Of a stretch of 64,000 nucleotides of DNA, positions 4,671-54,291 are shown in pieces. The DNA comes from Trypanosoma brucei (taxonomy: Eukaryota). The DNA lies in NCBI GenBank assembly GCA_000002445.1, contig CP000067.1:704001-768000 (forward strand). The letters are read 5' to 3'. Position numbers and translations under genes: made by a program. Position 1 is the first letter of the stretch. The number at the start of each line of letters is the position of its first letter. Under the pieces are notes generated by a model that worked only from the letters and a program-made list of their open reading frames with translations, ran no database searches and had not been told where the DNA came from.

Positions 4671-6923
4671 ATGAGCGAAGAAGTAGATTGGTTGGGAAAC
4701 GGGGGATTCTTTTCTTCCACCGTAATAGAAGTGGCCGTAATCAGACACCATAATATCGGGAAGAAAAAGGAGGAGGTCATCACCTCCATGCAACCACCTT
4801 CACCAACTGTATCCTTCATTGAATATGTCCTTTTGGCACTTGAGCTTCCACCAAACATGTTTGTCTCCAAACTGGCCGCGTGCTGCACGATGCTTTTCCT
4901 AACGCGCTCAGACCCAAAGCTCCTACGGGAGTTGTGTAGAAAGTGGGTAATACGATTCAAAAAAGATCGGCACCTGATTATTTCCCGGATTCGGGAAAGC
5001 ACAAGGAGTGCTAATTGCTCTGATATGTACTCGAGAGCATCCATGGATAGTGTTGTCGAGAATCTTCCGGGCTCAGATGAGTGTGACCCACAGAACTGTA
5101 TGGAACATTTTCTTCACCTGATCAACACGTTTGTGCCGGAGTATTTTTCTTGGAATTGGCACCACACAGAGTTGATGATTCAAACCAATAGAAAGTCGGA
5201 GGACTTTGTACGCGAAAGGCTGCTTCCACTCTGTAGGAATAGCAGCGAGGATGCTGATGGATTGGATGACGAGGATAAGGACAAGGACGAAGCTCTGGCG
5301 TCCTTTTTTCTTAGTAAACGGCCTGCGGATACTCGGGGCTTTAACAAATGCGAAGAAGCATGGACAAACGGCCTCGAAAACCCTGAGCGGCCCCCTCTTG
5401 AAAGGTATGCATCGCGCATTCGTTTCGCAACATTCAGCAACCTCCGCAACTGTTTCCGCCAGTCACCACATGGCGTGGTGCTCATATTTCACGCTAACTA
5501 TTCTTCAAAGAGTTGCGAGACGCTGAGGACCTTTGAGGAAATTCTCATGAAACAGATGCTGAACCCTCAACCACAGGTGTGTGTTGTTCACATTGTTGCA
5601 GAGCCTGAACTCGCGCGCTTATATCAAATAAATTGGTTCCCAACGATCATCTATGTGCCACCGCTATCCCAACCGAAGAGCGGCCCATTGCTGGAAGTTG
5701 TAGAGTCTAACACCAATGGTAATGGTTGTTCATTCAACCAAGTGCGCACGAGTAACGGTACGCCTACCATTCGGGGCACTGGGGGTGAAGCCGATGATGT
5801 ATCATGCGACGCATTGCCACCAGTGCGTCTGGTGTCATCGGATGCGGAGGAGTCAAGCGATGATTCCCCCTGTGCAGCAAGTCCATTGCAAGAAGAGGAA
5901 ATATCACCCTCTGTTAAACATAAGAAGCACCGTGTGTATCCGCCAGAAGGTGACTTATCGGCTCCGTCGCTTGCAAAGTGGATAAATAGCAGAGGTTCCG
6001 TAGCACAGCTGATGCCTGCGGATAATCGTGCGGTTTCACGCATTAATCAGCTCCCTGAAAGGAAGGGATTTCCGAATGGTTTGAAGCATTCGTCGTCGAG
6101 GGACTCTCTGCAGACGTTGAGTTCCTCTGCGGAGGCGGCGGATTCTCATGAAACCAGCGCAAAGGCACCGGTGTTCATTTTTCTGGGAGGAGGTGTGGCT
6201 GCAGGGAAAAGCACTGTAGTGTCTGTGCTTTCTGGTAGTTTATGGTGGGAGGAGCACAAGGCAAATAGCGTCATCATTAGTGCTGATAACTACAAGAGCC
6301 AGAGTTACCTGGTATCGAATGACATGGAGAAGCAGCACGAGTATAGCACACGTTTGGCAGAGGAACTCATGGTGAGAGCAGTGAATGGGAGGCGCAGCAT
6401 TGTGTTTGATAGTACAATGATGTGGAAACCGTTTGTTCAGCAGGTGATTGATATGGTGCGCAATTCCCATCGTGTGCTGTACGAACAGGGACCGGGCTAT
6501 CGGGATGGTGGAAAAGTGGAAGAATACTTTAGGACGGTGGGACCACGGTCAGAGTCTCACCTTCCACCATATGTAATTCGACTCTTAGCAATAACGGTTG
6601 AGCCTGAAGTTGCGGTACGCCGCGGAATCCTTCGCAACTTCTCAACAGGACGAAGCGTGCCTATCAAAACTCAACTTCGCTCCTTCCGCCTATTTGCAGA
6701 GAACTTTGTGGAATATGTTTCCCTAGTAGATGAAGCTACGTTGTACAACAACAATGTGATTGTTGACCTCGAGAAGGGCGAACTTCCGCCGGTGGTAGCG
6801 GAAAAGCGGGAGGGGAAACTGGTGGTAGTTGATCACGACGCCTATGCACTTTTCTTAGGACAACGGGGGTTAAATGAAAATGCTGGGAATGCACTTGAGC
6901 TCTACAACCCCAAGCAATCCTAA
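4671..6923 (+). CDS. multidomain protein with an N-terminal thioredoxin-like fold (degenerate active site) and a C-terminal zeta-toxin/AAA_33-like P-loop kinase domain
   Basis: The ATG at 4671 directly follows a roughly 90-nt polypyrimidine tract. A thioredoxin-like pattern reads VVLIFHANYSSKSCETL…VCVVHIVAEPELARLYQINWFPTIIYV, with a single Cys in place of CxxC. Walker A (FIFLGGGVAAGKSTVV) is followed by VIISADNYK, as in the zeta-toxin/UNAG-kinase family. Confidence 0.65.
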   Translation: MSEEVDWLGNGGFFSSTVIEVAVIRHHNIGKKKEEVITSMQPPSPTVSFIEYVLLALELPPNMFVSKLAACCTMLFLTRSDPKLLRELCRKWVIRFKKDRHLIISRIRESTRSANCSDMYSRASMDSVVENLPGSDECDPQNCMEHFLHLINTFVPEYFSWNWHHTELMIQTNRKSEDFVRERLLPLCRNSSEDADGLDDEDKDKDEALASFFLSKRPADTRGFNKCEEAWTNGLENPERPPLERYASRIRFATFSNLRNCFRQSPHGVVLIFHANYSSKSCETLRTFEEILMKQMLNPQPQVCVVHIVAEPELARLYQINWFPTIIYVPPLSQPKSGPLLEVVESNTNGNGCSFNQVRTSNGTPTIRGTGGEADDVSCDALPPVRLVSSDAEESSDDSPCAASPLQEEEISPSVKHKKHRVYPPEGDLSAPSLAKWINSRGSVAQLMPADNRAVSRINQLPERKGFPNGLKHSSSRDSLQTLSSSAEAADSHETSAKAPVFIFLGGGVAAGKSTVVSVLSGSLWWEEHKANSVIISADNYKSQSYLVSNDMEKQHEYSTRLAEELMVRAVNGRRSIVFDSTMMWKPFVQQVIDMVRNSHRVLYEQGPGYRDGGKVEEYFRTVGPRSESHLPPYVIRLLAITVEPEVAVRRGILRNFSTGRSVPIKTQLRSFRLFAENFVEYVSLVDEATLYNNNVIVDLEKGELPPVVAEKREGKLVVVDHDAYALFLGQRGLNENAGNALELYNPKQS

Positions 6924-7240: not shown

Positions 7241-8838
7241 TCTTATGTGTGCGTGCCTTCATATGTCCGTTTACAAATACTTAAAAAAAATCAGAGGGAA
7301 GTGGGAAGTGGTCCAAACAGGTTCAACTAATAAGTGATGGCGGAGGAGAGTGTTTGAACAGAGAAGGGATAACATAGCAACCGTTCTAGCTCATATAACA
7401 TCGGTGTTGATTTCTTTTCGGTGTGCGTGTGTGCGTGTTTTGTTTTGTTTGTTTGTTTGTTCTCTTTTCAATTAAAACGGTAATCCCACAGTAATATCTT
7501 GCATGTACATATACACGTGTAAATGTGGGTTTTTTTTTGTCCCTCCCCCTCCCCTACCTTGGCCCTTGCTTCCCCAACCGCCAGCCTCTGGTACAGAAAA
7601 TATGAGAACATTAAGGTGAAGGAAAAGGGTAGGCAGGGTTGTTACCGTTTAAAGAGGAAAAAAAAACTAGAAGAGATAGGGATAGGGATATTACTGTCCG
7701 TCACTTTTCTTTTCATTCTTTCTTGGTCTTATCATTTTCTGTTCCTTCATTTCTTTTCTCTCTCCTTCATTTCTTTTTTCTTTTTTTTTTTATTTTTATT
7801 TTAACTTTATCTTTCCTCTCACTAATGGTGGTGAAATGGAGGAAAGCGGGAGAAGCGGTTGGTTTCGTCGTTGGGGTTTCTTTTCCCGCTCAACAACCGA
7901 GTAAAAGTTACATTCATGCACGCGCAGGCGTGGAGCTTTTGGCGCCGCTTCCTTCTCTTCCTTTTTTTTCTTTGTTTGTGTGTTGTTGGTGTCGTTGTTG
8001 TTGTAGTTGTGTTCTATAATTATTCGTGCAAAGTGCTCCCATTAATATCTGGACTTTATGTTATCCCCTTTTTTTTTCTTTTTTTGCCCTCCCCTCACCT
8101 CCCTTTGCTCTCTTCTCTTCCACGCCTTTTCTTTCATACACATATGCACTCTTTTGTGTTTCCCCTTTTTTTTTTCATTTTATTTAAAGAAAGAAATAAA
8201 AAGAATCTTTTTCAAACCCGTTTGAACCATTTCTCATTTGGTGTAGGGCTGAAGTCAAGGCCTGCTGAACGCATTAGTTTGCTCGGGGAATTGTTGTGCT
8301 GCATTTCCACCACTCTCTTCCCTTCTCTGAATAGTACCTTCCCTACTATCATATTAATTTATATTTATTTATATTTACATATAAATAAATCTGTTGTTGT
8401 TGCCATTTGTGGGGGTGTTTTTTTTCCCCCCCCCCCCTCCCCTCCTTCTTTCCTTTTAAAGTTGTTGTACACATTCATCTTTTCTTTTTCTTTTTTGTGC
8501 GTAGGAAATAAAATTTTAACAAACAAACTTGCTCATACACTTACGTTGCCTCCACAAACACACACACACACACTTACATCCAACACCGCAGCAGTGTGTT
8601 GCTGCTCTTGGACAGTGGAACCCATTGAAAGGCAAACTAAACGAGTAACTAAAAAGGGCATTCGTACGTGTCAAAAAAAAAACAGTGGAGGAAAGATAAA
8701 AAGTAAAGTGGACAAAGCGGGCGATTAGTGCAATCATTGTTGTTTGTTTGTTTGTTTTTTTTTCTTTTTTGCCCCTTAATAAGGCAAAGAGACGCAACAA
8801 CATTTTTTTTTAAAAACGGTATCACTTGTATTAGAGAT

Positions 8839-10134
8839 ATGTTTCGAACGTTACCCTTGAGGTCAAGTATTCGCATGGTGGAGTGCCCGCGCGATGCGAT
8901 GCAGGGCTTACCACATTTTATCCCAACAGAACAAAAGATACGGTACCTTAAAGCTCTCCTGAAGTGTGGCTTTTATGCTCTTGATTGTGGTTCTTTTGTG
9001 TCACCGCGAGCAGTTCCTCAAATGCGTGATAGTACCGAAGTTATCGCTAACTGTTGGAAAACTATGCAAGAGGAAAAGGCAGCGCCTAAGTTGTCTGTTG
9101 TTGTTGCATCACTCGCTGGGTTTAAGCAGGCATTGGAAACTCCGGGAGTGAGTGTCATTGGGTATCCGATTGGTTGCTGCGAGCGGTTTCAGCAACGTAA
9201 TGCGAAAAAGAGCATTGCAATGTCCCTTGATGAAATTAGAAACATAAAGGAGGCCACAGATGCTTTCAATGCGCAACGAAGCTCAAACCCCGTGGCTCCC
9301 AATGAAGACGTCAATGGGAGGGAGCTTCTCATTTACATTTCTATGGCATTTGGTAATCCGTATGGCGAGTCGCACAGTATTGATTTAGTGGAAAAATTGG
9401 TAGGAGAACTTGTCGCATCGGGGGCGCGTGACATTAGTCTTGCTGACACCACTGGAGTAGCGCAACCGCCCCTCATATTTGACACCTTCACTCAATTACG
9501 GAAGAAATTCCCTGATGTAACATTTGCTGGACATTTTCACAGTAATGCGGTGGAGGCGAGAGGGAAAATTGTTGCAGCGTTGGATGCCGGTTGCACGATG
9601 ATCGACAGCGCGCTGTGTGGTATGGGCGGTTGCCCATTCGCTAAAGATGACGGTCTTGTGGGAAATGTTGCGACGGAGGTGGTGGTGAAGGCGCTTGAGG
9701 AGCGTGGCGTCCTCCCCGCTGCTCTCAATAAGGAGCAACTAAAGAAATGCGTCCTCATCAAACAGGAGATTTTTGGTGTGAGCGTGAGAGACATGTTGAT
9801 TTCACAAACACTGCACGATGAGAAGCGGTTTGCGACGTTATGCCAGGAGCACTTTAAGTTGTATGATGTTAACGACGATGGTACTTTGGATTATGAAGGA
9901 TTTAGAGATAGTATGATTCATGTCTTTGCTGAATTGGGTGCACCACAGCCATCAGAGGAGAAAATACGCAGCAGTTTCGCGAAGGTTGATATCCAAAATC
10001 TTGGGTTTATTACAATTGACGCGTACACGATGGGTGCAAGGCGCTTACTCGTCAAGAGATTGGCTTCCAACACCAACACAACAACTAAGAATGAAGAAAG
10101 GGGGGAAGGTGTCGTTGAAGCATCTTCCTGCTGA
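8839..10134 (+). CDS. HMG-CoA lyase family protein (HMGL-like TIM barrel) with a roughly 150-aa C-terminal extension containing two EF-hand-like loops
   Basis: PRDAMQGLP…DCGSFVSPRAVPQMRDSTEV and …HFHSNAVEARG…ALCGMGGCPFA match the HMGCL signature blocks (PRDGLQ, SFVSPKWVPQM, HFHDT…GLGGCPYA). The C-terminal loops are DVNDDGTLDYEGF and KVDIQNLGFITIDAY. The ORF-track start at 8728 (a hydrophobic, poly-F stretch) is trimmed to MFRTLPL at 8839. Confidence 0.85.
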   Translation: MFRTLPLRSSIRMVECPRDAMQGLPHFIPTEQKIRYLKALLKCGFYALDCGSFVSPRAVPQMRDSTEVIANCWKTMQEEKAAPKLSVVVASLAGFKQALETPGVSVIGYPIGCCERFQQRNAKKSIAMSLDEIRNIKEATDAFNAQRSSNPVAPNEDVNGRELLIYISMAFGNPYGESHSIDLVEKLVGELVASGARDISLADTTGVAQPPLIFDTFTQLRKKFPDVTFAGHFHSNAVEARGKIVAALDAGCTMIDSALCGMGGCPFAKDDGLVGNVATEVVVKALEERGVLPAALNKEQLKKCVLIKQEIFGVSVRDMLISQTLHDEKRFATLCQEHFKLYDVNDDGTLDYEGFRDSMIHVFAELGAPQPSEEKIRSSFAKVDIQNLGFITIDAYTMGARRLLVKRLASNTNTTTKNEERGEGVVEASSC

Positions 10135-11142
10135 GCATTCTAAAGGTTTGGTTTTTTTTTTCTTTTTATTATTTGTTGTTGTTGCTATTGTTTGGTTTTT
10201 CTTTCCCCCCCCCCCCCCTCCTCCCTCTTCAAACTCGTGATTGGGACTTTAGGAGGGACCAGGGGAAGGGAGACGAGTACCGTAATCATGGCTGGTTAAT
10301 GGCACCTCTATCATCCAGTCTGTGTTTCCCAAATTCACAAATCAAAACCACAGAACCGAAATTATGGGATAACAAAATGAAGAACTTAAGACAATGATGT
10401 GATGCAGGATAAAAAGAGGAACGGGGCATGAATGCACACAAACAGAAACCCGTACACACGATGTATGCAATATGTACTGTTTGTAGCAGAAAGAAAAAGA
10501 GGGAGGGAGGGAGTGAGTGAGAAAGAGGAAAGGAAGCTGATGGCGCTTCTCCCGGTTCCCTTTTACTCTGTCTTGTATCTCACACTTGATTTCTGTGACC
10601 TAACTTTTATCTGCTTCATACTTTTTTTTTTCATTCACTGTCTTCGGTTGGCTCGTTTGTATCCCTCTTTTTCTCTTTCCATTTGTTTCCATTCCTTCTG
10701 TCATGTCCTTCACTCCTTTTCCACTCATACGCACGGTCCATCTGCATGCTCATGTGTGTAATATACCGTGTCTCTTTGGAAAGTTCAGTAGTGAAATGTG
10801 TTTGATGCAGTTCAAAATGCGCATATCTCTAAAGATCACTTTTTGTTGTTGTTTTTGTTGTCGTTGTACCAATATTTGCAGCATTTATGTACTTGACATT
10901 TGCGTCTACTACCTGTTGGTTCTTTGTTCTCTTTACGCTACTTTCAATTTTCCCCCTTTTTTGTTATTATCTCCTTTAGTGCATAAATACACGAAGAGGA
11001 AGTGAGGCGGGGCTCATTCCCATTTGGCTCGCATCAGTGGAGACAACTTGTGGTGTTGCTAACGGAACCGTAAGCATTTAGCACCGGAGTTGTTTTGTTT
11101 TGTTTTGTTTCCCCCTACACACACACACACACACACACACAG

Positions 11143-11634
11143 ATGACGGCAATTGCGATGAAACGGATTGCTAAAGATCTTAACGTTCTAAAGACGGACA
11201 TTAGTCGTAGTGCTCCGGTGGTGTCTCTCATTGCCGCTGTTGAAAGTGAAAACGTTTATCAATGGCATATTGTGGCACGGGCTCCAGCCGACAGCATTTA
11301 CAGCAGTAATAGTGATGAAGCACAGCATAAGAAGAAAAATGCATATCGTCTTTCAGTAATATTCACAGACGATTACCCCGACAAGCCACCAAAGGTAAGT
11401 TTCATTACTAATATTTATAGTCCGCTTGTTGGGGAAAAGGGTGATGTGTGTGAGCGACTCACTGAAAAGGATTGGACACCAGACCAGCGTGCAACTAATG
11501 TTATTATGCGTGTCCTCAATGAGGTGTTTAGTGGATATAAAAACAATGACGATTATGATTTAAACCACGACGCACGCCGTTGTCTAAAGGAGGAACCAGA
11601 GGTATTCGAAAAGCGAGCTCAATGTCCGTTTTAG
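11143..11634 (+). CDS. ubiquitin-conjugating enzyme (UBC fold) with a non-canonical active-site region (HPN replaced by SPL)
   Basis: The UBC-fold pattern MKRIAKDLNVL…YPDKPPKVSFITNIYSPLVGEKGDVCERL…WTP is present and the catalytic Cys is retained. The start at 11143 (MTAIAM) lies right after the (AC)n/AG acceptor-like sequence acagATG. Confidence 0.8.
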   Translation: MTAIAMKRIAKDLNVLKTDISRSAPVVSLIAAVESENVYQWHIVARAPADSIYSSNSDEAQHKKKNAYRLSVIFTDDYPDKPPKVSFITNIYSPLVGEKGDVCERLTEKDWTPDQRATNVIMRVLNEVFSGYKNNDDYDLNHDARRCLKEEPEVFEKRAQCPF

Positions 11635-12451: not shown

Positions 12452-14761
12452 ATGGAAAGACTGTACCGTAGCCACATTCGCAGGTGCCACTGCCCGTGTG
12501 AAGTTAATATTTGCCTTCCGCGCTCTTTCCCCTTATTTGTAATGCAACGAAATGTCATACAATCAAACAGTGGAAGAGGCCTGCGGAGTATTTTGGATCA
12601 ATATGAGGATTTCAAGCTCATCATGCAGCTTCGCAAAAATGGACGGGGGAATTATTACAGATATCAACAGAAATTGTGGCCATCAGCTGAGGCTTTAGAG
12701 AGAGATATGACGGAGAGACTTTACAGCAGCACCGAACGCACTCCCCTCGCGCTTTTGCCGCAACCGAAAAGAGCACCATCGCCTCGCACATGTGTGCTTG
12801 AGGGGTGTGGTGCAGCGGCATTGTTAGAAGGAGCGGAAAATGCCGTACAGATCAGTGAGGACCTAAACGACAATCAAAAGGAAGTGAATGAGCCGTTAGA
12901 TCTCACGGACTCGACGGAAACAATGTTTGCCGAGCTTTATGGTACGGATCAGAGTATCAATAATAAAATCATCACAGATAACGACCTACAGGGGACTGTG
13001 CTGGAAGCGGCTCAACAGCGTGCGAGGACTCTCATATTCAATGACCTTCGGGTTAATGAGCTCGCAACTTCTCCAGCAGTTGCGTCCACTAATTCGAGAA
13101 GAACAACAACAATACTGTCCGCCAAAGATAAAGGTAGCATGGCGTGGGAGGCGCTCGGGCTCTGCCCCACGTTGAGTAAACAAGTTATAGCTAAATACAG
13201 TGCAGCGCCCACGCGACTTCAGTGTCGCCTCCTTCCCGCCCTTCTTCATGAAGATCATAACGATGTATTGTTTAATGGCGTGACGGGGAGCGGGAAAACT
13301 AGTGCGCTTCTTCTTGCCCTCTTACAAGCGGTCCGAAACGAGTCTGCCGGACTGAATGTATTTGTTGCTAGTAATGCCATTACTGCCATGCGAGCCCGCG
13401 ACCAGTTGCAGGCACTCTGTGGGGAACTGGGTGGTGCCATGGTGGACCGACCTCGAGACGATTTCACATGGTTGTTTATGGGCATCTTTTCAGGAGAATA
13501 TGAGGCGTACTATCGAACCCTTCGCCGTTCCCTGAATAGTGATCACGGACCCGTGCGGATCTTTATAACGACGGCAGACACTTTTTGCCAATTGTTATTC
13601 GAAAAGAAAATGGAGTTCGAGGCATTTGGTTATCTTCGCCGTGTTTACGTTGATGATGTGGGTGTACAACTTCCAATGGTGCCCCCTCATGCTCCCGTAC
13701 ACGAAATGCGGGAGAGGCTTCGGAATCCGCTCCCATGCGAACTGTTGCTTGGAACCCTGCATCAACTGCCGGGGCCTCACATTCGATCCATCTTGCAGCT
13801 GGGGCTCGTGTCGGCCGATATGGAAACTGCGCTCAAAGATCATTTAAAGTCGTTGTGCGTAAAATTGGAGCGCCACACGATTGTTCTTTCCGCTGTGCGC
13901 ATTCCCTCAACGATACACTGTCTTTTTAGCTTTCATCTCGCCCACGAGGATGTGTACGAATACGTTGTGCAACTCATCTGGAATGCACGGGCTACGATCC
14001 CTGGTCGGGCGGTGATATATGTCCGCTATGAAGACAACATCCTACAGGTGCGCACGAAGCTACGCCAGCTTGGAATGGATGTAAAGCTCTTCTCAGAAGT
14101 TTACCATGATGGTGTGTTTCGTGACTCATGGAAGTTTCTCTTGCTACATGAATCAGAGGCGTTTGGGGTTGACTTACCGCTTGTCTCGCATGTCTTCATC
14201 ACATTTTGTCCCCACAGCACATGTTCCTTCCAGCATATGTGTGGTCGAACCGGACGACTGGGAAATGTTGGTTGGGTGTACACCATAACAGACAAACGTG
14301 AAGCAAAGGCCGTGCGTGAGGTGGTCACACAGCTGGAAGTTGATTTTTGTAGTCACGTGGTTGACAGCAATCTTGCACAAGTGCCACCCAGCGATATGGA
14401 CCGCCTAACAAAGGAGTTTGAGCTATATGGGTTGGATCCGCAGTATGCAGTGAGGCAACACTACGTTGTCCAGAGTGAGAATCCAGACATGGCGTACCGC
14501 AGTCGTGAGTTCTTTAGTAAGCCGGCGGAAAAGCAGTTCCAGATGGAGGACTACACGCCAACGCCGGTGTTGCATAGGCGGTTCGTTAACGCAAAGAAGT
14601 TGGCTAAGGACGTGGAACGGGACCCTTCTGTGGCACTCACCTTACAGAAGGAAGGATTACTGAACAGCAAACTTGCTCCAACGAAAAAAATGAGAAACCT
14701 TCTCAACAACAAGAGCCGAAGCTTCAATGCAGCACTTTATGGTATGAAGAGTAATAAATAA
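12452..14761 (+). CDS. DEAD-box-like RNA helicase with degenerate motifs (possibly organellar)
   Basis: Helicase-like motifs are present in the canonical order, read as:
- motif I: GVTGSGKTSALL
- Ia-like: VFVASNAITA
- Ib-like: ITTADTF
- motif II: VYVDDVG (DEAD becomes VDDV)
- motif VI-like: HMCGRTGRLG
The start is uncertain (12452, or in-frame ATGs at 12542 and 12626). Confidence 0.7.
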   Translation: MERLYRSHIRRCHCPCEVNICLPRSFPLFVMQRNVIQSNSGRGLRSILDQYEDFKLIMQLRKNGRGNYYRYQQKLWPSAEALERDMTERLYSSTERTPLALLPQPKRAPSPRTCVLEGCGAAALLEGAENAVQISEDLNDNQKEVNEPLDLTDSTETMFAELYGTDQSINNKIITDNDLQGTVLEAAQQRARTLIFNDLRVNELATSPAVASTNSRRTTTILSAKDKGSMAWEALGLCPTLSKQVIAKYSAAPTRLQCRLLPALLHEDHNDVLFNGVTGSGKTSALLLALLQAVRNESAGLNVFVASNAITAMRARDQLQALCGELGGAMVDRPRDDFTWLFMGIFSGEYEAYYRTLRRSLNSDHGPVRIFITTADTFCQLLFEKKMEFEAFGYLRRVYVDDVGVQLPMVPPHAPVHEMRERLRNPLPCELLLGTLHQLPGPHIRSILQLGLVSADMETALKDHLKSLCVKLERHTIVLSAVRIPSTIHCLFSFHLAHEDVYEYVVQLIWNARATIPGRAVIYVRYEDNILQVRTKLRQLGMDVKLFSEVYHDGVFRDSWKFLLLHESEAFGVDLPLVSHVFITFCPHSTCSFQHMCGRTGRLGNVGWVYTITDKREAKAVREVVTQLEVDFCSHVVDSNLAQVPPSDMDRLTKEFELYGLDPQYAVRQHYVVQSENPDMAYRSREFFSKPAEKQFQMEDYTPTPVLHRRFVNAKKLAKDVERDPSVALTLQKEGLLNSKLAPTKKMRNLLNNKSRSFNAALYGMKSNK

Positions 14762-15311: not shown

Positions 15312-17723
15312 ATGACCACTCTATCTTTAGATTCAACAGCGGTACGTGTTGTTGCCCGCTGTAGGCCCCTTCTTCCGAGTGAACGAAACCACACAACCTC
15401 CCGAATTCAGATTAACGCAGAAGCTGGGACAATTACTCTTGCCGAAAAGGGATTAGGGGTTGGTCGTTGTTTTACATTTGATCGTGTTTTCCTTCCCAAC
15501 GCGCAACAGCACGATGTTGCTGAAGAGGTGAGTCCACTGATCAGTCACGTACTCGAAGGATTTTGTGCCACCATTTTCGCATACGGTCAGACAGGTAGCG
15601 GAAAGACACACACAGTCGAAGGGTTTGAATACATTCGTAACGGTAGGGGTGGCCCTAAAGTCAACATAGACACAGACCCCGAAAAGCATGGTATTATTCC
15701 CCGCGTGATACAGCTCATTTTCGATCGTGTTCGGGAAAAGCAGTTCGCAGATGCTAACACATCATATCACCTTAAGTGCAGCTATTATCAGATATACAAT
15801 GAACGGGTTACAGATTTGCTGAATCCCTCATCGGAAGCTTCTAAAGGCACTGGTCTAAAGGTACGTTGGTGCCGTGACGATACTTTCACAGTGGAGAACC
15901 TTTACATATGTGAGTGTGACCAACCCGGCGAGATGCGCCGTATGTTCTTGTCTGGTGCTAAAGCTAAAGAAATGGGAAGTCATATGATGAACCAGCAATC
16001 GTCCCGCTCGCACTGCGTCTTTACAATCCACGTAGAGCGTTCCGATAGCGACATCCCAGGGAATAGTGTGAAGTCACAGCTCACCATTGTAGACTTGGCG
16101 GGGTCAGAGAAGCTGACGGCGCTTGACGCCAACCCCTCCTCAAAGCTGACTAAGGAATCTATAGATATAAATACGTCACTTTTTGCCTTGGGAAAAGTGA
16201 TCACCTCTCTCGCCCAGCGATCAAAGCACAATCAGAAAAACGGTGCGGGGGCTAATCAGTTGCACATCCCCTACCGTGATAGCAAACTGACCAAGCTCCT
16301 GAAGCATGCACTAGGAGGAAACTCACTAACAACGATGTTAGCGTGTATCAGCCCATCCGATAACTACGCGGAGGAAACAATGTCGACGCTTATGTTCGCT
16401 ACTACAGCTAGAACTATTAAAAACGTGCCTTACGTGGCTGAGGACCCTGTAACACAGGTTGTCAATCAACTCCGGAGCGAACTTGGAAATGTAAAGGAGG
16501 AGTTGAACTACTATCAGAACCTTGTTGGCAGCAACCTCATCAACAGTGGCCCAACGCGACCACAGCCTATGTACCACGTGCAGGCTTCAAACGACGAGGC
16601 CGTTAACGCACAAGTGAATGAATTATCGGACAAACTCCTGCAGGCATGTGATGCCCTCCAGAAAATTATGAGCATCAACACCCAGCTTCGCTCTGCTTTT
16701 GACGTGGTGAAGGAGGCGAAAGCAGAACTCGAACGAAGGGAGATGGAGCTAAACGCTGAAAATTTAGCTCTGCGCGAACGTATTGAGATGTTGGAGTCTG
16801 TTGTGCTTAAAGAGGACTTGACGGAGTGCTTTGGAAATGGCGCAAAGTCCCAGGAGGGGTATTTGAAGAACAACGGTTACTACTATTCCTCAGCGCGAGC
16901 ATCACTCCTTACAAATGCATCCGACCCAAAGTCCTGCCACGCACCCACCAGGCCCCACTCCGCAAGCGTGCACGAGTCGCCCGCTCCAACAACAGCTGGT
17001 CAAACAAATCCACGGGCTTATGCAGCGGATGGAGCGTGGGCGGCGGAGCGCCCTCCGATTGCCGAAGATAATCCCCGACCAATGACGGGACCTTCAGTGC
17101 GCCCGTCAGCGGAGGGTTTTGTGCCCTCAGCACAACTTGCGGAAGAACGCTTACGTGGGGAACAATCAATTAATAAACGAAGAGAAAAGCTGACAAAGGG
17201 TCTCGCCGAGTATGCTAACAGATACTGTCAACCTGACCGTTTCGTGAACTATGCGGAATACTACGGAAAGGCCCGCCGCTTGGTAACCACGAACCGTTCA
17301 GTTTCTAGTACCGTGGATGATATGAGCAAAACCCTCCGCCAAATCCCAGAGAGCATTGCCAGCACCGTTCCCAACTCACTGAAGACCACTTCTCAATTCG
17401 GGATGTTACACTTTGGTGGGAGCCGGGAGGAGTTGGGCGAACTCGAGGAACGTCGGCGGCAGCGTGAGGAGAAGCGGCAGGCGCTCATCGCTCAGCAGGA
17501 TGCCCTCCGCGGTGATGTTGCGCGCGCATTTGTTGGTATTACTGAAAAGAAGGAACCCATCCGAGCTGGAAAAGAACCATACGAGCAAGGATCATTAGCA
17601 TCCACGGACACGACCGGGAAGCAAATGCCAAAGTTACCTTCAGCGCAACCTGCCCCCGCAGATTCGGTGAGTCGGCTGAAGGCTTATTTGGAACAAGAAA
17701 TAGGTATGAGGGGTGAGTTATGA
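15312..17723 (+). CDS. kinesin-like motor protein (N-terminal motor, C-terminal coiled-coil tail)
   Basis: The P-loop FAYGQTGSGKTHTV, switch I SSRSH and switch II DLAGSE are all present. Coiled-coil heptads follow at roughly aa 440-500. Confidence 0.95.
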   Translation: MTTLSLDSTAVRVVARCRPLLPSERNHTTSRIQINAEAGTITLAEKGLGVGRCFTFDRVFLPNAQQHDVAEEVSPLISHVLEGFCATIFAYGQTGSGKTHTVEGFEYIRNGRGGPKVNIDTDPEKHGIIPRVIQLIFDRVREKQFADANTSYHLKCSYYQIYNERVTDLLNPSSEASKGTGLKVRWCRDDTFTVENLYICECDQPGEMRRMFLSGAKAKEMGSHMMNQQSSRSHCVFTIHVERSDSDIPGNSVKSQLTIVDLAGSEKLTALDANPSSKLTKESIDINTSLFALGKVITSLAQRSKHNQKNGAGANQLHIPYRDSKLTKLLKHALGGNSLTTMLACISPSDNYAEETMSTLMFATTARTIKNVPYVAEDPVTQVVNQLRSELGNVKEELNYYQNLVGSNLINSGPTRPQPMYHVQASNDEAVNAQVNELSDKLLQACDALQKIMSINTQLRSAFDVVKEAKAELERREMELNAENLALRERIEMLESVVLKEDLTECFGNGAKSQEGYLKNNGYYYSSARASLLTNASDPKSCHAPTRPHSASVHESPAPTTAGQTNPRAYAADGAWAAERPPIAEDNPRPMTGPSVRPSAEGFVPSAQLAEERLRGEQSINKRREKLTKGLAEYANRYCQPDRFVNYAEYYGKARRLVTTNRSVSSTVDDMSKTLRQIPESIASTVPNSLKTTSQFGMLHFGGSREELGELEERRRQREEKRQALIAQQDALRGDVARAFVGITEKKEPIRAGKEPYEQGSLASTDTTGKQMPKLPSAQPAPADSVSRLKAYLEQEIGMRGEL

Positions 17724-27300: not shown

Positions 27301-27458
27301 CATCGACAAGAGGAAAAAAAAGGTAAGAAAAAAGTAAAGTAAAGTGAGTACATACATTGATATTCCTCCTTTTTTTTTCTTTCCTTCCTCTCTCTCTCCT
27401 TTATCGAGACTTGTTTGGGGTTTTTGTCTGTTAATAGTCTGCGTTCTTGTCTTTACAA

Positions 27459-29477
27459 ATGGAAGAGGGTGATCATATGGAGTTTTCCGCCAGGGAGATA
27501 GAAGAACTGGAGAATGATACAATCAATCCTACGAATTGCAACCACAAACTTGACAAGGAGCACGTCGAAAAGCTTAGGCAGGCCACGTTGCAGGAAATTG
27601 AGGAAAAGGATAAACTGGTGGAGAAAGGAATGCGACTGTTCTTCATGAATAAGGTAAAGGATGCAGAAGATATTATGAATAACAATGCGCCACTTGATCC
27701 GCTTCATGCGCTCGGCGCCTGTTGTCTGGCAGCACTGAAATCTCTGTTGTCGATGGGCGTGAACGATACAAAATATGCTCTTCAGAAGGCTGATTTTTCC
27801 ATAGCATTCTCCACTGAAGTTGCCACAATCCCCAAAGGTTTCTTTGGCTCCGTAACAAACTTGTTTTGGGGAGAAGCTGGGCGGGAATTTCAACCAGGGA
27901 TGTTCCGCGCAAAAACAATCCGCGCGCAGTCATTTGCCGTCCGTGGGATTCTGCTCATCTCCCAGCAGGGTGATATGATGGCACTTCTCCGCGGTGGCAT
28001 GGCCCTGAAGAATTCCTATAAGCTTCTGCAGTCGCTGAAACGGGAGCTGGAAGACCTTAAGAAGAAGAAAGATGCAAATTCCTACGAGGGTTTGGGAGCC
28101 GACCGCAACAGCGTGTACGGTCTTTTGTTGATGGTGGGAGTTACACATGTTGTCATTTCACTCCTCCCGTCACGTGTACTGTCCATCCTCGGTTTCTTGG
28201 GACTCAAATACGACAGGAAACATGGTATGAAATTCATCTCTATGACATGGGAGAGTCGCACTCTATTTGCACCCTTTGCTGCTCTGTTTCTTATGGTCAT
28301 CACGAGTTTTGTACCGGGTTTCTGCCCACTTCATGTCCCCCGGTGGCTTCCCGCTGCTAAAGCTATTGCTGAGCACACGGTGGATCAGCCACCAATGGGT
28401 GAGTCTCTATTGCATTTATGGATCCTCGGCCGTATTAAGCGCTTGGAGCAAGATGTTGAAGGGAGTATGTCCGCATTGTCCAAATGCTTGAAAGCCGCGG
28501 AGGAGGGACAAGTTGCCAAGTGGATGCCGCAGTTGCGGGACTTCGCCATTTATGATCAGGGGTGGAATTTTGTCATCACCATGCAGTGGAGGGAAGCCAT
28601 TGAATTATACAAGAGGCTTGAGGATCACTCAGCATGGTCAAAATTGTTTTATGGGTACGCGCAGGCGTGTTGTTTTGACATGTTAGCGCTAGAGGCTGAA
28701 CAGGCAGGAAATAAGGAGGGTGTGGCGAAGTATCAACAGGAAGCATCGGAGGCATTATGGAGGACGGCACACTACAGGATAAACATTATGGGTGGTAGAG
28801 CAGTGTCGGTAGAGGAGTTCGTATCCGTGAGACTGGGGGAAACGTTTAAGCACTGTGGCATTGAACATCCCAATAAAGGCAACAAACGTATTGTTGAGCC
28901 CACACCATTCCCTTTAGAGGGGCTGAAGCTACGAAACCCTGTACGAGTGGGTGTGATAGAGCTCCTTGCCCTATTCGACATCACGCATCAGATGCCGCAG
29001 TCTAATACGGAAAAGTTTCTAGATATCATCGACAGAGTATCGAAGAAGTGCAGTGATTCACCTCAAATAGGTTCCACAGATGATGGAAACGGGGCTTGCG
29101 GAAATGAGGCACCAGCAGAGAAGGGTGATGAAAAGAATATTGAAACATACACGACCATCGTATGCGCGGCAGTCAAGGCAAATTTGTTATGCAGGATCGA
29201 ATCCAGACGGGAAGAAGCGAGTGCATGTCTGGAAGGAGCAGTCGCAATATCATCCAAATACAAGCGGGAAAAGTGCTCAGTTTCCTGGGTGCGGCCTCAA
29301 ATGATATACGAGCAAGCCGTATTGGCGTCTGTGGAGGGTGACGAGGGACGGATGAACAAGTTATTGGATAAAGTTAAAGAAAGCAACCACAAACGGCTCT
29401 TTCAGAACGTGATGGATGTTAAATTACACCTGACGGAGTATGGTAAGGAGGCGCCAGTGGTCAGTCACATCATTTAG
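27459..29477 (+). CDS. TTC39/Iml2-like protein (DUF3808-type TPR-like)
   Basis: The N-terminal block KGMRLFFMNKVKDAEDIM… resembles the TTC39-family opening (a.lflnnkfadAeell). …LLMVGVTHVVISLLPSRVLSILGFLG… resembles the family's LLP.kvlkll.f.GF motif. The ORF-track start at 27447 is TTG; the first ATG is 27459. Confidence 0.5.
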   Translation: MEEGDHMEFSAREIEELENDTINPTNCNHKLDKEHVEKLRQATLQEIEEKDKLVEKGMRLFFMNKVKDAEDIMNNNAPLDPLHALGACCLAALKSLLSMGVNDTKYALQKADFSIAFSTEVATIPKGFFGSVTNLFWGEAGREFQPGMFRAKTIRAQSFAVRGILLISQQGDMMALLRGGMALKNSYKLLQSLKRELEDLKKKKDANSYEGLGADRNSVYGLLLMVGVTHVVISLLPSRVLSILGFLGLKYDRKHGMKFISMTWESRTLFAPFAALFLMVITSFVPGFCPLHVPRWLPAAKAIAEHTVDQPPMGESLLHLWILGRIKRLEQDVEGSMSALSKCLKAAEEGQVAKWMPQLRDFAIYDQGWNFVITMQWREAIELYKRLEDHSAWSKLFYGYAQACCFDMLALEAEQAGNKEGVAKYQQEASEALWRTAHYRINIMGGRAVSVEEFVSVRLGETFKHCGIEHPNKGNKRIVEPTPFPLEGLKLRNPVRVGVIELLALFDITHQMPQSNTEKFLDIIDRVSKKCSDSPQIGSTDDGNGACGNEAPAEKGDEKNIETYTTIVCAAVKANLLCRIESRREEASACLEGAVAISSKYKREKCSVSWVRPQMIYEQAVLASVEGDEGRMNKLLDKVKESNHKRLFQNVMDVKLHLTEYGKEAPVVSHII

Positions 29478-34780: not shown

Positions 34781-36490
34781 ATGATACACAGAAGTTTGCG
34801 TTCCAGCTATTTTAGTATCCATGTTACTAAACCCCAACGAGTACTCTTGATGGGTTACCGACAATGTGCCTCAAGTGCTGCGGCTCCGTTGATCAATGCA
34901 AAAGGTGCTGGCGTGTCTCCCCAGAAAGACGAGGTGCGCTCGACGTGTCAGGAGTTGCGCCGCGTAATGGCCAGCCTTCTTGAAGACCGCCAATGTCTAT
35001 ATCGTGATGCGGTCCTCAGTGCAGCTTTGGACCCGTACCGATCCAAGCTTCAGAGTCTTCTTGAGGGTAATGACTCTTTCGGAGGTTCGACTGAAACCCC
35101 CAAGTCGCTAACGCTAGGCAAACTTTTGGAGTGCCGAGATGGATGGGCGGCTCAAGTGGGTGGAGATGCGATTTCGCTCGTTGACTTCTACAATGCCTTT
35201 CTCCTTAGTGCTTTAGTGAATTCCCATGCAGATGTGCAACTGGTACTTGATTGCATGCAGCAGCATGATCATATGGATCCGACAGCGGAAACCTATGTGA
35301 CCATCATGCATTCTTTTACTGCCCAACGGAAGGGACCCAACCCTGTAGCAGGCGACACAGCCTTTCATTATTTTGGACATGCACTCAAAACGCGAGGGGA
35401 GGGCTTTATCACGCCAGAACTTTGGAGCGCCGTATTTGTTGTGTGTGCCGTTACGGGGGCAGCTGGGAAGCTCCTTGATCAATGGTGGGAACTTCTGCTC
35501 AAGACATGCAAAGAAGGTTCATCGCCACTACCTTACGGCGCAGTCCATGCAGCACTCACATGGTGCTCATCCAAAGGGGATGTCGAAAGGGTGATGCGTT
35601 ACTTTAACACGGCAAACAGCAATTCGATGGTTGCGTTTGACCAAAACGATGTACCGCACGTGATTGGAAGCGGGAGCTTAACAACCAGAAGCAGCGACCA
35701 GGTTGTCCAGCAGTGCCAACTGCGGCTGTTGGTAAAGTTGATGGTGACAGCAAAGGCAATTGAACTTGATGGCGGTCTTCGTGCACTTGTGGTCAAAGAC
35801 GTCCGACGCCTTATTGACCCAGAAGTACTTCGTGCGGCCCCGTGGGGAATCATCAACGACCTCCTTAGTGGACTTTCCTTGCAAAGTGCTATGCAGCTGT
35901 TGAAATTCCGCTCAGCAGCAGCACTGGAGAAGGATGGTGCAGTGCCCTTCACTCTTTGGGCCTCGCTTCTCCGACGCTGCGCGAGGGATCATCACATTGA
36001 TCAGGCGGAGTCACTGTTTCTTTTCATCCGCAAGCGCTTCGAGCTGTCGGGTGAGCAAAAGGCTGAGCTTGTGGAGATCATGATTCGAATGTTCGCTACG
36101 CTGCCACAAGGGGACTTCGCATCCGCCACTTCCCTTTTTATCGAACACGTTATTCGCCACCCACCAGGGGAGCCCAGAGTGGAACCTAATGCCACTTTTT
36201 ATAACTTATTGATACGTGCTGCCGACACGCGCAATGCTGCCATGATGACCTTTTTGGAGGCGTGTGCGGCGGGCATTGACATGAACATTGAAACTTTCGA
36301 GGCGCTTTGCCGCTCGAATCGCTTCGGGACCATATCGTCGCTTAGTAAAAAGCTGCCACACGGTTACCAAGCTTCCAAACTCGATCAGCAAATTCGCATC
36401 CCCGCCGACGCTGACGCTCACCTTCGCCGTGAGGAAGCGATGAGGCTGCGAGGGAAGCCGCTAGTGGACTCCACCGGTGAAGTGGACTGA
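34781..36490 (+). CDS. pentatricopeptide-repeat (PPR)-like protein, probably mitochondrial
   Basis: PPR-like 35-aa units include ETYVTIMHSFTAQRKG… and ATFYNLLIRAADTRNAAMMTFLEACAAGIDMNIETFEAL. The N-terminus is basic/hydroxylated (MGYRQCASSAAAPL at 34850 is an alternative start). Confidence 0.5.
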   Translation: MIHRSLRSSYFSIHVTKPQRVLLMGYRQCASSAAAPLINAKGAGVSPQKDEVRSTCQELRRVMASLLEDRQCLYRDAVLSAALDPYRSKLQSLLEGNDSFGGSTETPKSLTLGKLLECRDGWAAQVGGDAISLVDFYNAFLLSALVNSHADVQLVLDCMQQHDHMDPTAETYVTIMHSFTAQRKGPNPVAGDTAFHYFGHALKTRGEGFITPELWSAVFVVCAVTGAAGKLLDQWWELLLKTCKEGSSPLPYGAVHAALTWCSSKGDVERVMRYFNTANSNSMVAFDQNDVPHVIGSGSLTTRSSDQVVQQCQLRLLVKLMVTAKAIELDGGLRALVVKDVRRLIDPEVLRAAPWGIINDLLSGLSLQSAMQLLKFRSAAALEKDGAVPFTLWASLLRRCARDHHIDQAESLFLFIRKRFELSGEQKAELVEIMIRMFATLPQGDFASATSLFIEHVIRHPPGEPRVEPNATFYNLLIRAADTRNAAMMTFLEACAAGIDMNIETFEALCRSNRFGTISSLSKKLPHGYQASKLDQQIRIPADADAHLRREEAMRLRGKPLVDSTGEVD

Positions 36491-54215: not shown

Positions 54216-54291
54216 AGCCGCACGGTTGAAAGGATCTTTAAAACAAGGGAAAGGTGCACAGGGAGGAGAGAGCAGTGTGTACAGTTGGCAA

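What the first reader, a model, noticed from the sequence alone, without database searches (positions are those of the whole stretch)
8839..10134. HMG-CoA lyase-family enzyme carrying a C-terminal EF-hand-like extension
The catalytic TIM-barrel blocks of HMGCL (PRD…GLP, SFVSPxxVPQM, HFH…GxGGCP[YF]A) are clearly present. The protein continues for about 150 residues with two loops resembling EF-hands (DVNDDGTLDYEGF; DIQNLGFITIDAY), although the -Z acidic residue is shifted by one position. That would suggest a Ca2+-responsive or dimerisation appendage on a ketogenesis/leucine-catabolism enzyme. Alternatively the enzyme could be a different HMGL-like member, since the family includes isopropylmalate and homocitrate synthases.
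Basis: partly seen in the sequence, partly recalled or inferred. Interest (0 to 1): 0.5.

Follow-up and report, generated by a model that had tools for sequence, protein, structure and literature searches.

The report
Trypanosome HMG-CoA-lyase-like enzyme with degenerate EF-hands
This is the annotated Trypanosoma brucei gene Tb927.4.2700, a mitochondrial HMG-CoA-lyase-family enzyme fused to a real calcium-sensor-type (EF-hand) domain; the fusion is shared by all Euglenozoa, but in trypanosomes both loops have lost the key calcium-binding residue, so it is a moderately interesting variant and not a new kind of system.

Summary

**Catalytic core.** Residues 14-312 form an HMGL-like TIM barrel. 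Every HMG-CoA-lyase catalytic and metal residue is present, and the model is closest to solved HMG-CoA lyases. The core nevertheless belongs to a divergent subfamily (signature ECPRDAMQG). That subfamily is shared with about 283-aa Bacteroidota enzymes and scores below NCBIfam's HMG-CoA-lyase cutoff.

**Calcium binding.** Many free-living relatives have canonical loops. All 10 Trypanosoma sequences lack the bidentate Glu at loop position 12 in both loops. The module is still as conserved as the catalytic core. In T. brucei it is most likely a Ca2+-insensitive structural or regulatory appendage descended from a Ca2+ sensor.

**Open points.** Published leucine labelling found no HMG-CoA-lyase flux in procyclic cells although the protein is expressed, so substrate and regulation remain unsettled. 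I found no paper that discusses the fusion.

Verdict: new variant of a known kind, moderate interest.

The parts
8738..8776 (+). Polypyrimidine tract upstream of the start codon, followed by AG dinucleotides; the likely trans-splice acceptor region of the mRNA
   Evidence: Read directly from the sequence. The function is inferred from general trypanosomatid gene structure.
8839..10134 (+). Complete coding sequence: 431 codons plus TGA. This is Tb927.4.2700, annotated as putative mitochondrial HMG-CoA lyase.
   Evidence: ORF and translation; 100% identity to T. brucei XP_844420/AAZ10861; gene identifier from PMC5993337 and PMC3155505.
8839..8874 (+). N-terminal 12 residues, MFRTLPLRSSIR: a short basic presequence, the presumed mitochondrial targeting signal
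   Evidence: Basic, acid-free N-termini are aligned in all Trypanosoma orthologues, and Bodo and diplonemids have longer Arg/Ser/Ala-rich ones. Papers call the protein mitochondrial, a prediction in the one that gives a basis. Some gene calls start at M13.
8878..9774 (+). HMGL-like (beta/alpha)8 DRE-TIM barrel, residues 14-312; the Pfam match covers residues 17-301
   Evidence: Pfam PF00682 at 90 bits. AF2 model pLDDT 89.9, pTM 0.82. Foldseek best matches are HMG-CoA lyases 1ydn, 1ydo, 6nds and 2cw6, with TM 0.84-0.89 normalised to the target.
8890..8895 (+). Catalytic Arg18-Asp19, equivalent to human HMGCL Arg41-Asp42, inside the subfamily signature ECPRDAMQG
   Evidence: Alignment to 2cw6. 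Invariant in 50 sequences. Coordinates checked.
8983..8985 (+). Asp49, at the position of human Glu72; a conservative substitution that is invariant in this subfamily
9256..9321 (+). Insertion found only in Trypanosoma, residues 140-161, poorly conserved
   Evidence: Absent from non-Trypanosoma sequences. Only 5-36% identity within the genus. pLDDT falls to 72 in the block of residues 151-160.
9532..9540 (+). His232-Phe-His234 metal ligands, equivalent to human His233 and His235
9619..9636 (+). Flexible glycine loop GMGGCP carrying catalytic Cys265, equivalent to human Cys266. Asn276, equivalent to human Asn275, follows at 9664-9666.
   Evidence: Lower pLDDT (69) over residues 261-270, as expected for a mobile loop.
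9775..9828 (+). Conserved linker, residues 313-330, containing a short helix (316-326) and the start of the first EF-hand helix (328-342). It is absent from the Bacteroidota enzymes, which end near residue 312.
   Evidence: Alignment. Predicted helices 316-326 and 328-342.
9829..10089 (+). EF-hand pair with its long exiting helix, residues 331-417: helix-loop-helix twice, with a short beta bridge between the two loops
9865..9900 (+). EF loop 1, DVNDDGTLDYEG. Ligand positions 1, 3, 5 and 9 are kept, but position 12 is Gly instead of the bidentate Glu.
9988..10023 (+). EF loop 2, DIQNLGFITIDA. Degenerate: Gln at position 3, Leu at 5, Ala at 12. Nearly invariant in this degenerate form across Trypanosoma.
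10090..10131 (+). Predicted disordered, unconserved C-terminal tail, residues 418-431, with no peroxisomal SKL-type ending
   Evidence: pLDDT below 50 for residues 421-431. Not alignable between species.

Best explanation
The gene encodes a nuclear-encoded, mitochondrially targeted metal-dependent acyl-CoA lyase of the HMG-CoA-lyase clade. Its catalytic machinery is intact: an Arg-Asp pair, a His-x-His plus Asn metal site, and a Cys on a mobile Gly loop.

The core belongs to a divergent subfamily whose nearest relatives are about 283-aa Bacteroidota enzymes, not the canonical animal or bacterial HMG-CoA lyases. In the ancestor of Euglenozoa this core became fused, through a conserved helical linker, to an EF-hand pair. 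Many free-living members keep canonical Ca2+ loops, so the ancestral enzyme was probably Ca2+-binding (inferred).

In the genus Trypanosoma both loops lost the position-12 Glu, and loop 2 also lost the position-3 and position-5 ligands. The whole module nevertheless stayed under purifying selection as strong as on the barrel. In T. brucei the EF-hand pair therefore most likely acts as a Ca2+-independent structural or regulatory domain, for example by packing on the barrel or by oligomerisation (inferred).

The most likely reaction is HMG-CoA to acetyl-CoA plus acetoacetate, at the branch between leucine catabolism and sterol synthesis. This activity has not been demonstrated.
For: **Identity and intactness:**

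**Catalytic core.** HMGL-like at 90 bits. PDB sequence hits to HMG-CoA lyases are about 1e-28, against 1e-8 or weaker for homocitrate, isopropylmalate or citramalate synthases and pyruvate carboxylase. R18, D19, Q22, D49, D203, H232, H234, C265 and N276 are invariant in 50 sequences and map to human R41, D42, Q45, E72, D204, H233, H235, C266 and N275. The AF2 model has pLDDT 89.9, and its best structural matches are HMG-CoA lyases at TM 0.84-0.89.

**Subfamily.** Bacteroidota proteins are 43-53% identical over the core and share ECPRDAMQG. An NJ tree groups fusion proteins plus Bacteroidota in 100 of 100 bootstraps against human and B. subtilis HMGCL.

**EF-hand pair.**

**Distribution.** Trypanosoma, Bodo, Papus, four diplonemid genera and two euglenid genera. 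The gene is absent from Leishmaniinae, Blastocrithidia and Herpetomonas.

**Loop decay.** No Trypanosoma sequence has Glu12 in either loop, whereas most other fusion proteins keep it in at least one loop. A PROSITE-type loop pattern matches 0 of 10 Trypanosoma sequences and 20 of 28 others. P0014 and P0017 are canonical in both loops. Ligand positions 3, 5 and 12 of loop 1 vary within Trypanosoma (Lys or Arg at position 5 in half of them), while D1, G6 and L8 are fixed.

**Constraint.** Residues 313-417 are 62-72% identical across Trypanosoma, the core 59-76%, and the genus-specific insertion only 5-36%.

**Location and expression.** Described as mitochondrial (a MitoCarta prediction) and detected in the procyclic proteome and in a bloodstream-form proteomic study.
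Against: No Ca2+-binding or enzyme assay exists for this protein.

T. brucei loop 1 keeps five of six ligand positions, with an acidic residue at position 11, so weak or non-canonical cation binding cannot be excluded.

The protein scores 181 bits against NCBIfam's HMG-CoA-lyase model, below the curated cutoff of 246. [quoted passage not shown] The assumed substrate may therefore be wrong, or the enzyme may be held inactive.

I could not inspect model coordinates, so how the EF module contacts the barrel is unknown.

Four gene neighbourhoods of the Bacteroidota relatives gave no pathway clue.
Confidence: 0.6

Rival explanations
1. The T. brucei enzyme is still a Ca2+-gated (or Mg2+-gated) HMG-CoA lyase. 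Loop 1 binds the cation non-canonically, with Glu353 at position 11 or a water molecule replacing the missing Glu12. Matrix Ca2+ then switches the lyase on, which would explain why no lyase flux is seen in resting cultured procyclic cells.
For: Loop 1 keeps D1, N3, D5, G6, L8 and D9. An acidic residue at position 11 is present in 8 of 10 Trypanosoma sequences. The module is strongly conserved. The protein is expressed, yet no lyase flux is detected. Relatives with canonical loops imply an ancestral Ca2+ role.
Against: From established EF-hand biochemistry (my knowledge, not tested here): the bidentate Glu12 supplies two of the seven ligands, and replacing it is the standard way to abolish binding.

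Within Trypanosoma the ligand positions drift: position 5 is Lys or Arg in 5 of 10 sequences, and position 12 is Gly, Asp or Cys. That is not the pattern of a conserved binding site. Loop 2 has lost three ligand positions.
Confidence: 0.17
2. The protein is not an HMG-CoA lyase in vivo. The divergent ECPRDAMQG subfamily, in Euglenozoa and Bacteroidota, cleaves or condenses a different acyl-CoA or 2-oxo-acid substrate using the same DRE-TIM chemistry. This rival concerns the substrate and is compatible with any reading of the EF-hand module.
For: The score is below the NCBIfam HMG-CoA-lyase cutoff, 181 against 246. Identity to solved HMG-CoA lyases is only 25-30%. Motifs near the active site differ from the canonical enzyme: PRDAMQG versus PRDGLQN, Asp for Glu72, and Pro at the position of human Lys48. 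Labelling indicates no HMG-CoA-lyase flux although the protein is present.
Against: Every residue known to be needed for HMG-CoA cleavage is present, including the Cys loop that is specific to the lyases. HMG-CoA lyases are by far the best sequence and structure matches. The gene's presence in Trypanosoma and Bodo and its absence from Leishmaniinae agree with published pathway reconstructions.
Confidence: 0.2
3. The EF-hand resemblance is a chance similarity in an unrelated helical C-terminal extension.
For: For the T. brucei sequence alone, Pfam EF-hand_7 falls just under the gathering cutoff (27.1-29.9 bits against 30). Neither loop matches the PROSITE-type pattern. Foldseek E-values are only about 1e-3.
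Confidence: 0.02

Closest known systems
Canonical HMG-CoA lyase: human HMGCL and HMGCLL1, and bacterial forms such as B. subtilis YngG, P. aeruginosa, Brucella (EC 4.1.3.4)
   Same: Same DRE-TIM (beta/alpha)8 fold. Same Arg-Asp pair, His-x-His plus Asn metal site, and Cys on a Gly-rich mobile loop. A mitochondrial presequence, as in human HMGCL. These are the best PDB sequence and structure matches.
   Different: - Only 25-30% identical, and below NCBIfam's curated cutoff.
- Different signature: ECPRDAMQG against GPRDGLQN, and Asp in place of Glu72.
- No peroxisomal C-terminal signal.
- Carries an EF-hand module of about 105 residues that no solved HMG-CoA lyase has.
- Activity has not been demonstrated, and labelling data argue against flux in procyclic cells.
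Short (about 283 aa) Bacteroidota proteins annotated as 'hydroxymethylglutaryl-CoA lyase' (Cyclobacteriaceae, Flammeovirgaceae, Roseivirga, Flavipsychrobacter)
   Same: Nearest relatives of the catalytic core: 43-53% identity, the same ECPRDAMQG signature and the same invariant residues. They form a clade with the fusion proteins in 100 of 100 bootstraps.
   Different: They end where the linker begins, near residue 312, and have no EF-hand module and no presequence. As far as I could find they are uncharacterised. Their gene neighbourhoods are not informative. The direction of any gene transfer is unresolved.
Ilborins: DRE-TIM-like barrel plus C-terminal EF-hand proteins of sponges, cnidarians and other marine invertebrates (Borisenko et al. 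2022, PMC8864356)
   Same: The same overall architecture: an aldolase-type or DRE-TIM barrel followed by a C-terminal EF-hand domain. The authors also propose a link between Ca2+ and acyl-CoA or energy metabolism.
   Different: - Ilborins are 560-610 aa, predicted cytoplasmic, and so divergent that Pfam finds no significant catalytic domain.
- They have Arg-Glu, as in homocitrate synthase, not Arg-Asp.
- They keep a canonical Ca2+ loop.
- The fusion is probably independent. I could not test homology because no ilborin sequence was available.
Other enzymes fused to an EF-hand domain: T. cruzi acidocalcisomal soluble pyrophosphatase (5cuu), Drosophila nicotinamidase (9u8m), Chlamydomonas EF-hand thioredoxin (5e37)
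   Different: The catalytic domains are unrelated, and the EF domain sits elsewhere in the protein. What those EF domains do (Ca2+ sensing or oligomerisation) was not checked here; one literature search for the trypanosome pyrophosphatase found nothing.

Membership tests
HMG-CoA lyase (EC 4.1.3.4), DRE-TIM metallolyase superfamily | HMGL-like domain (Pfam PF00682) above the gathering score | tested here: met
   90 bits against a cutoff of 29, residues 17-301.
HMG-CoA lyase (EC 4.1.3.4), DRE-TIM metallolyase superfamily | Score above the curated cutoff of the NCBIfam HMG-CoA-lyase model NF004283 | tested here: not met
   181.1 bits against a cutoff of 246. It is still the top-ranked model by a wide margin.
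HMG-CoA lyase (EC 4.1.3.4), DRE-TIM metallolyase superfamily | Catalytic Arg41-Asp42 and Gln45 (human numbering) | tested here: met
   R18, D19 and Q22 are aligned to 2cw6 and invariant in 50 sequences.
HMG-CoA lyase (EC 4.1.3.4), DRE-TIM metallolyase superfamily | Metal ligands His233, His235 and Asn275, plus Asp204 | tested here: met
   H232, H234, N276 and D203 are invariant.
HMG-CoA lyase (EC 4.1.3.4), DRE-TIM metallolyase superfamily | Cys266 on the GxGGCP[YF]A mobile loop | tested here: met
   GMGGCPFA with C265, invariant. The loop has lower pLDDT, as expected for a mobile element.
HMG-CoA lyase (EC 4.1.3.4), DRE-TIM metallolyase superfamily | Glu72 | tested here: inconclusive
   Replaced by Asp49, which is invariant in this subfamily. 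The change is conservative, but its functional effect is unknown.
HMG-CoA lyase (EC 4.1.3.4), DRE-TIM metallolyase superfamily | (beta/alpha)8 fold closest to solved HMG-CoA lyases | tested here: met
   Foldseek hits 1ydn, 1ydo, 6nds and 2cw6: E 2.5e-22 to 3.4e-21, TM 0.84-0.89 normalised to the target.
HMG-CoA lyase (EC 4.1.3.4), DRE-TIM metallolyase superfamily | Cleaves HMG-CoA to acetyl-CoA plus acetoacetate | not testable with these tools
   I found no assay. Labelling in procyclic cells suggests no such flux although the protein is detected (PMC5993337).
EF-hand pair (Pfam PF13499, calmodulin-like fold) | Pfam EF-hand_7 gathering score | tested here: inconclusive
   The T. brucei sequence scores 27.1 bits full-length and 29.7-29.9 bits for the C-terminus alone, against a cutoff of 30. 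Of 31 family members, 29 match at E<=1e-3, best 3e-12. The family profile hits calmodulin at about 1e-11.
EF-hand pair (Pfam PF13499, calmodulin-like fold) | Two helix-loop-helix units paired through a short beta bridge | tested here: met
EF-hand pair (Pfam PF13499, calmodulin-like fold) | Canonical 12-residue Ca2+ loop with ligands at positions 1, 3, 5 and 9 and a bidentate Glu at 12 | tested here: not met
   Loop 1 has Gly at position 12. Loop 2 has Gln at 3, Leu at 5 and Ala at 12. None of the 10 Trypanosoma sequences has Glu12 in either loop, whereas 20 of 28 other fusion proteins have at least one loop matching the pattern.
EF-hand pair (Pfam PF13499, calmodulin-like fold) | Binds Ca2+ | not testable with these tools
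   Needs ITC, 45Ca overlay or Tb3+ luminescence on recombinant protein.
Ilborin family (PMC8864356) | 560-610 aa; barrel not significantly detected by Pfam; Arg-Glu at the substrate and metal site; canonical C-terminal EF loop; metazoan or cyanobacterial distribution | tested here: not met
   This protein is 431 aa, has a strong HMGL-like hit and Arg-Asp, has degenerate loops, and is euglenozoan, compared with the paper's description. No direct sequence comparison was possible.

The most novel reading that the evidence does not exclude
In Euglenozoa, matrix Ca2+ directly gates the HMG-CoA branch point between sterol synthesis and ketogenesis or acetyl-CoA production. It does so through an EF-hand pair fused to a laterally acquired, Bacteroidota-type HMG-CoA lyase. 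T. brucei retains a working, non-canonical form of this switch. That would explain why the expressed enzyme shows no flux in unstimulated procyclic cells, and it would supply one of the very few direct Ca2+ effectors in the trypanosome mitochondrial matrix.
Probability: 0.15. Interest if true: 0.65.

Novelty: new variant of a known kind. Interest (0 to 1): 0.4.

Why it matters
HMG-CoA sits where leucine catabolism, ketogenesis and sterol synthesis meet in the trypanosome mitochondrion. The one candidate lyase, Tb927.4.2700, is expressed, yet no lyase flux was detected in procyclic cells (PMC5993337).

This analysis shows three things about the enzyme. It is a divergent subfamily member. It has carried an EF-hand pair since the origin of Euglenozoa. 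The Ca2+ ligands decayed specifically in Trypanosoma.

These give concrete, testable explanations for the missing flux: a regulated or silenced enzyme, or a different substrate. Orthologues with canonical loops and with decayed loops form a natural comparison set for asking how a Ca2+ sensor domain is repurposed. The practical impact is modest. The gene and both domains are already in public annotations, and the gene is absent from Leishmania.

Tried and rejected
- **Profile search with the C-terminal alignment A2** in the 5.8-billion-protein index returned nothing. Cause unknown; one search wasted.
- **The same profile against 1.84 billion representatives** was dominated by long multi-EF-hand proteins. 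Only HMGL-fusion proteins or short fragments covered the whole linker plus EF profile in one stretch. No new architecture was found.
- **The afdb50 fold library was unavailable**, so I could not look for the architecture in other taxa by structure.
- **Gene neighbourhoods of four Bacteroidota relatives** showed no leucine-catabolism or other conserved operon, so they give no clue to the substrate.
- **Ilborin sequences** could not be obtained from the paper, so homology with that family is untested.
- **Literature searches** combining HMG-CoA lyase, EF-hand and Trypanosoma, and one on the EF-hand of the trypanosome pyrophosphatase, found nothing. Searching the gene identifier found only pathway tables and proteomics lists.
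- **Isopropylmalate, homocitrate or citramalate synthase, or a pyruvate-carboxylase-type carboxyltransferase**, were considered and rejected. Their scores are far weaker, and they lack the Cys loop.
- **Reading the loops as a '-Z shifted by one' site** was considered and rejected. Canonical relatives have acidic residues at both positions 11 and 12, so the trypanosome state is a loss of Glu12.
- **The first phylogeny script timed out**. The faster NJ version resolves the fusion-plus-Bacteroidota clade but not its internal rooting.
Full report
**What is there.** Window 8839-10134 (+) is a single uninterrupted ORF of 431 codons ending in TGA. A longer GTG-started ORF from 8728 is a listing artefact. 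The stretch between 8738 and 8776 is a polypyrimidine tract followed by AG dinucleotides, as expected upstream of a trypanosomatid trans-splice site. The protein is 100% identical to T. brucei brucei TREU927 XP_844420/AAZ10861 and to the T. b. gambiense and T. equiperdum proteins. This is Tb927.4.2700, 'putative mitochondrial HMG-CoA lyase'. The window is therefore T. brucei chromosomal DNA. All 23 ORFs of at least 200 aa lie on the + strand, as in one polycistronic unit.

**The catalytic core.**
- Pfam HMGL-like covers residues 17-301 at 90 bits against a cutoff of 29.
- Against PDB sequences, HMG-CoA lyases score about 1e-28. Homocitrate, isopropylmalate and citramalate synthases and pyruvate-carboxylase-type domains score 1e-8 or weaker.
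- Using the alignment to human HMGCL (2cw6; chain index plus 27 gives native numbering), R18, D19, Q22, D203, H232, H234, C265 and N276 correspond to human R41, D42, Q45, D204, H233, H235, C266 and N275. Human E72 is replaced by D49. All of these are invariant in a 50-sequence alignment.
- An AlphaFold2 model built on that alignment is confident (pLDDT 89.9, pTM 0.82). Its best structural matches are the solved HMG-CoA lyases, at TM 0.84-0.89 normalised to the target and 25-30% identity.

**A divergent subfamily.**
- The protein reaches only 181 bits on NCBIfam's HMG-CoA-lyase model, whose curated cutoff is 246.
- Its closest non-fusion relatives are about 283-aa Bacteroidota proteins (Cyclobacteriaceae, Flammeovirgaceae, Roseivirga, Flavipsychrobacter). 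They are 43-53% identical over the core and share the signature ECPRDAMQG; the canonical form is GPRDGLQN.
- In a neighbour-joining tree, fusion proteins plus Bacteroidota group in 100 of 100 bootstraps against human and B. subtilis HMGCL. Bacteroidota are monophyletic in 79 of 100.
- Monophyly of the fusion proteins is recovered in only 10 of 100, so the direction of any transfer is unresolved.
- Four Bacteroidota gene neighbourhoods gave no pathway clue.

**The extension.** The Bacteroidota proteins end near residue 312. The T. brucei protein continues with a conserved linker (313-330) and two helix-loop-helix units (to about 417), followed by a disordered, unconserved 14-residue tail.
- Pfam EF-hand_7 matches at E 5e-6 to 8e-7, scoring 27-30 bits, at or just below the cutoff of 30.
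- Of 31 aligned C-terminal regions, 29 match EF-hand_7, with a best E of 3e-12.
- A profile of the region hits Chlamydomonas RSP7 at 3e-19 and calmodulins at about 1e-11.
- A separate AF2 model of residues 296-431 (pLDDT 85.7) shows the classical loop-loop beta bridge.

The EF-hand fold is real.

**Distribution.** Named fusion proteins come from these groups:
- Trypanosoma species.
- Bodo saltans and the prokinetoplastid Papus.
- The diplonemids Namystynia, Flectonema, Diplonema and Lacrimia.
- The euglenids Ploeotia and Petalomonas.

Environmental sequences add to these. One of them sits on a polycistron-like contig with the same upstream neighbour as in T. brucei. The fusion therefore predates the euglenozoan radiation. 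Published comparisons report the gene absent from Leishmaniinae, Blastocrithidia and Herpetomonas.

**Are the loops competent for Ca2+?** I scored positions 1, 3, 5, 6, 8, 9 and 12 of both loops in all fusion proteins.
- Several free-living sequences, such as P0014 and P0017, are canonical in both loops.
- Bodo-type sequences and most diplonemids keep a canonical loop 1.
- The euglenids and some environmental sequences keep a near-canonical loop 2.
- All 10 Trypanosoma sequences lack Glu12 in both loops. Loop 1 has Gly, Asp or Cys; loop 2 has Ala. Loop 2 also has Gln at position 3 and Leu at position 5.
- Within Trypanosoma, ligand positions 3, 5 and 12 of loop 1 drift (Lys or Arg at position 5 in half of them), while the structural positions D1, G6 and L8 are fixed.

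The trypanosome state is therefore a loss, not a shift. From established EF-hand biochemistry (my knowledge), losing the bidentate Glu12 normally abolishes Ca2+ binding.

The module is nevertheless not decaying. Residues 313-417 are 62-72% identical between T. brucei and other Trypanosoma, against 59-76% for the barrel and 5-36% for a genus-specific insertion.

**Interpretation.**
- Shown: an intact HMG-CoA-lyase-type active site, a genuine EF-hand pair, a fusion found across Euglenozoa, decay of the Ca2+ ligands specific to Trypanosoma, and strong constraint on the module.
- Inferred: the ancestral enzyme was Ca2+-binding. In T. brucei the module now serves a Ca2+-independent structural or regulatory role. 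The reaction is HMG-CoA cleavage.

The last inference is the weakest. Millerioux et al. 2018 found that leucine carbon enters sterols but not fatty acids in procyclic cells. They concluded that HMG-CoA-lyase activity appears absent although Tb927.4.2700 is in the proteome. That result fits an enzyme held inactive, a very low flux, or a different substrate. I give the main reading 0.6, residual Ca2+ or Mg2+ gating 0.17, and a different substrate 0.2. The substrate question overlaps with the other two.

**Comparison with what is known.** The gene and both domains are already in public annotation. The protein database's precomputed Pfam lists PF00682 plus PF13499, and one source names the T. melophagium orthologue 'EF-hand domain'. 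I found no paper discussing the fusion.

The closest described architecture is the ilborin family of marine invertebrates, a very divergent DRE-TIM-like barrel plus a C-terminal EF-hand (PMC8864356). Ilborins differ in length, in having Arg-Glu instead of Arg-Asp, in predicted location and in distribution. The two fusions are probably independent, but I could not test this.

**Verdict.** This is a new variant of a known kind, of moderate interest (0.4). It offers a testable explanation for the unexplained silence of the trypanosome HMG-CoA lyase.

Noticed in passing
window 4671-6923 (+): The gene directly upstream encodes a 750-aa protein with a Zeta_toxin-like P-loop domain at residues 491-597. 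A 755-aa Zeta_toxin-domain gene also sits directly upstream of the HMGL-EF-hand gene P0279, on the same strand, on a 24.6-kb environmental contig. The adjacency is therefore conserved across distant kinetoplastid-like genomes.
   Followed up: partly
window 1-64000: All 23 ORFs of at least 200 aa are on the + strand, as in one polycistronic transcription unit. Downstream genes include a ubiquitin-conjugating E2 (11095-11634), a DEAD-like helicase (12452-14761), a kinesin (15312-17723), a TTC39/Iml2-like protein (27447-29477) and a C2CD3-like protein (41474-44479).
   Followed up: partly
window 54226-60504, 31980-34352, 34781-36490 and 61317-63212 (+): Four large ORFs, of 2092, 790, 569 and 631 aa, have no Pfam match at E<=1e-5.
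   Followed up: no
window 9256-9321 (residues 140-161): A 22-residue insertion in the barrel is present only in Trypanosoma. It is poorly conserved (5-36% identity) and coincides with a dip in pLDDT. It is probably a surface loop of no fixed sequence.
   Followed up: partly
window 8839-8877: Some automatic gene calls for this protein start at Met13 and give 419 aa. The 12 residues before it form a basic presequence that aligns with similar N-termini in other Trypanosoma, so ATG 8839 is the better start.
   Followed up: yes
window 8560-8575 and 10140-10225: There is a (CA)n microsatellite upstream of the gene. Just after the stop codon there is a long T-rich tract followed by a C-rich tract of about 25 bases that includes a run of 13 C. 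These are typical trypanosome intergenic low-complexity sequence.
   Followed up: no
related proteins P0041-P0120 and P0283-P0370 (Bacteroidota): Bacteroidota carry a large, uncharacterised family of about 283-aa 'HMG-CoA lyases' with the ECPRDAMQG signature, well separated from canonical HMG-CoA lyases. In the NJ tree they fall inside or next to the euglenozoan fusion proteins, so an inter-domain transfer in one direction or the other is likely.
   Followed up: partly
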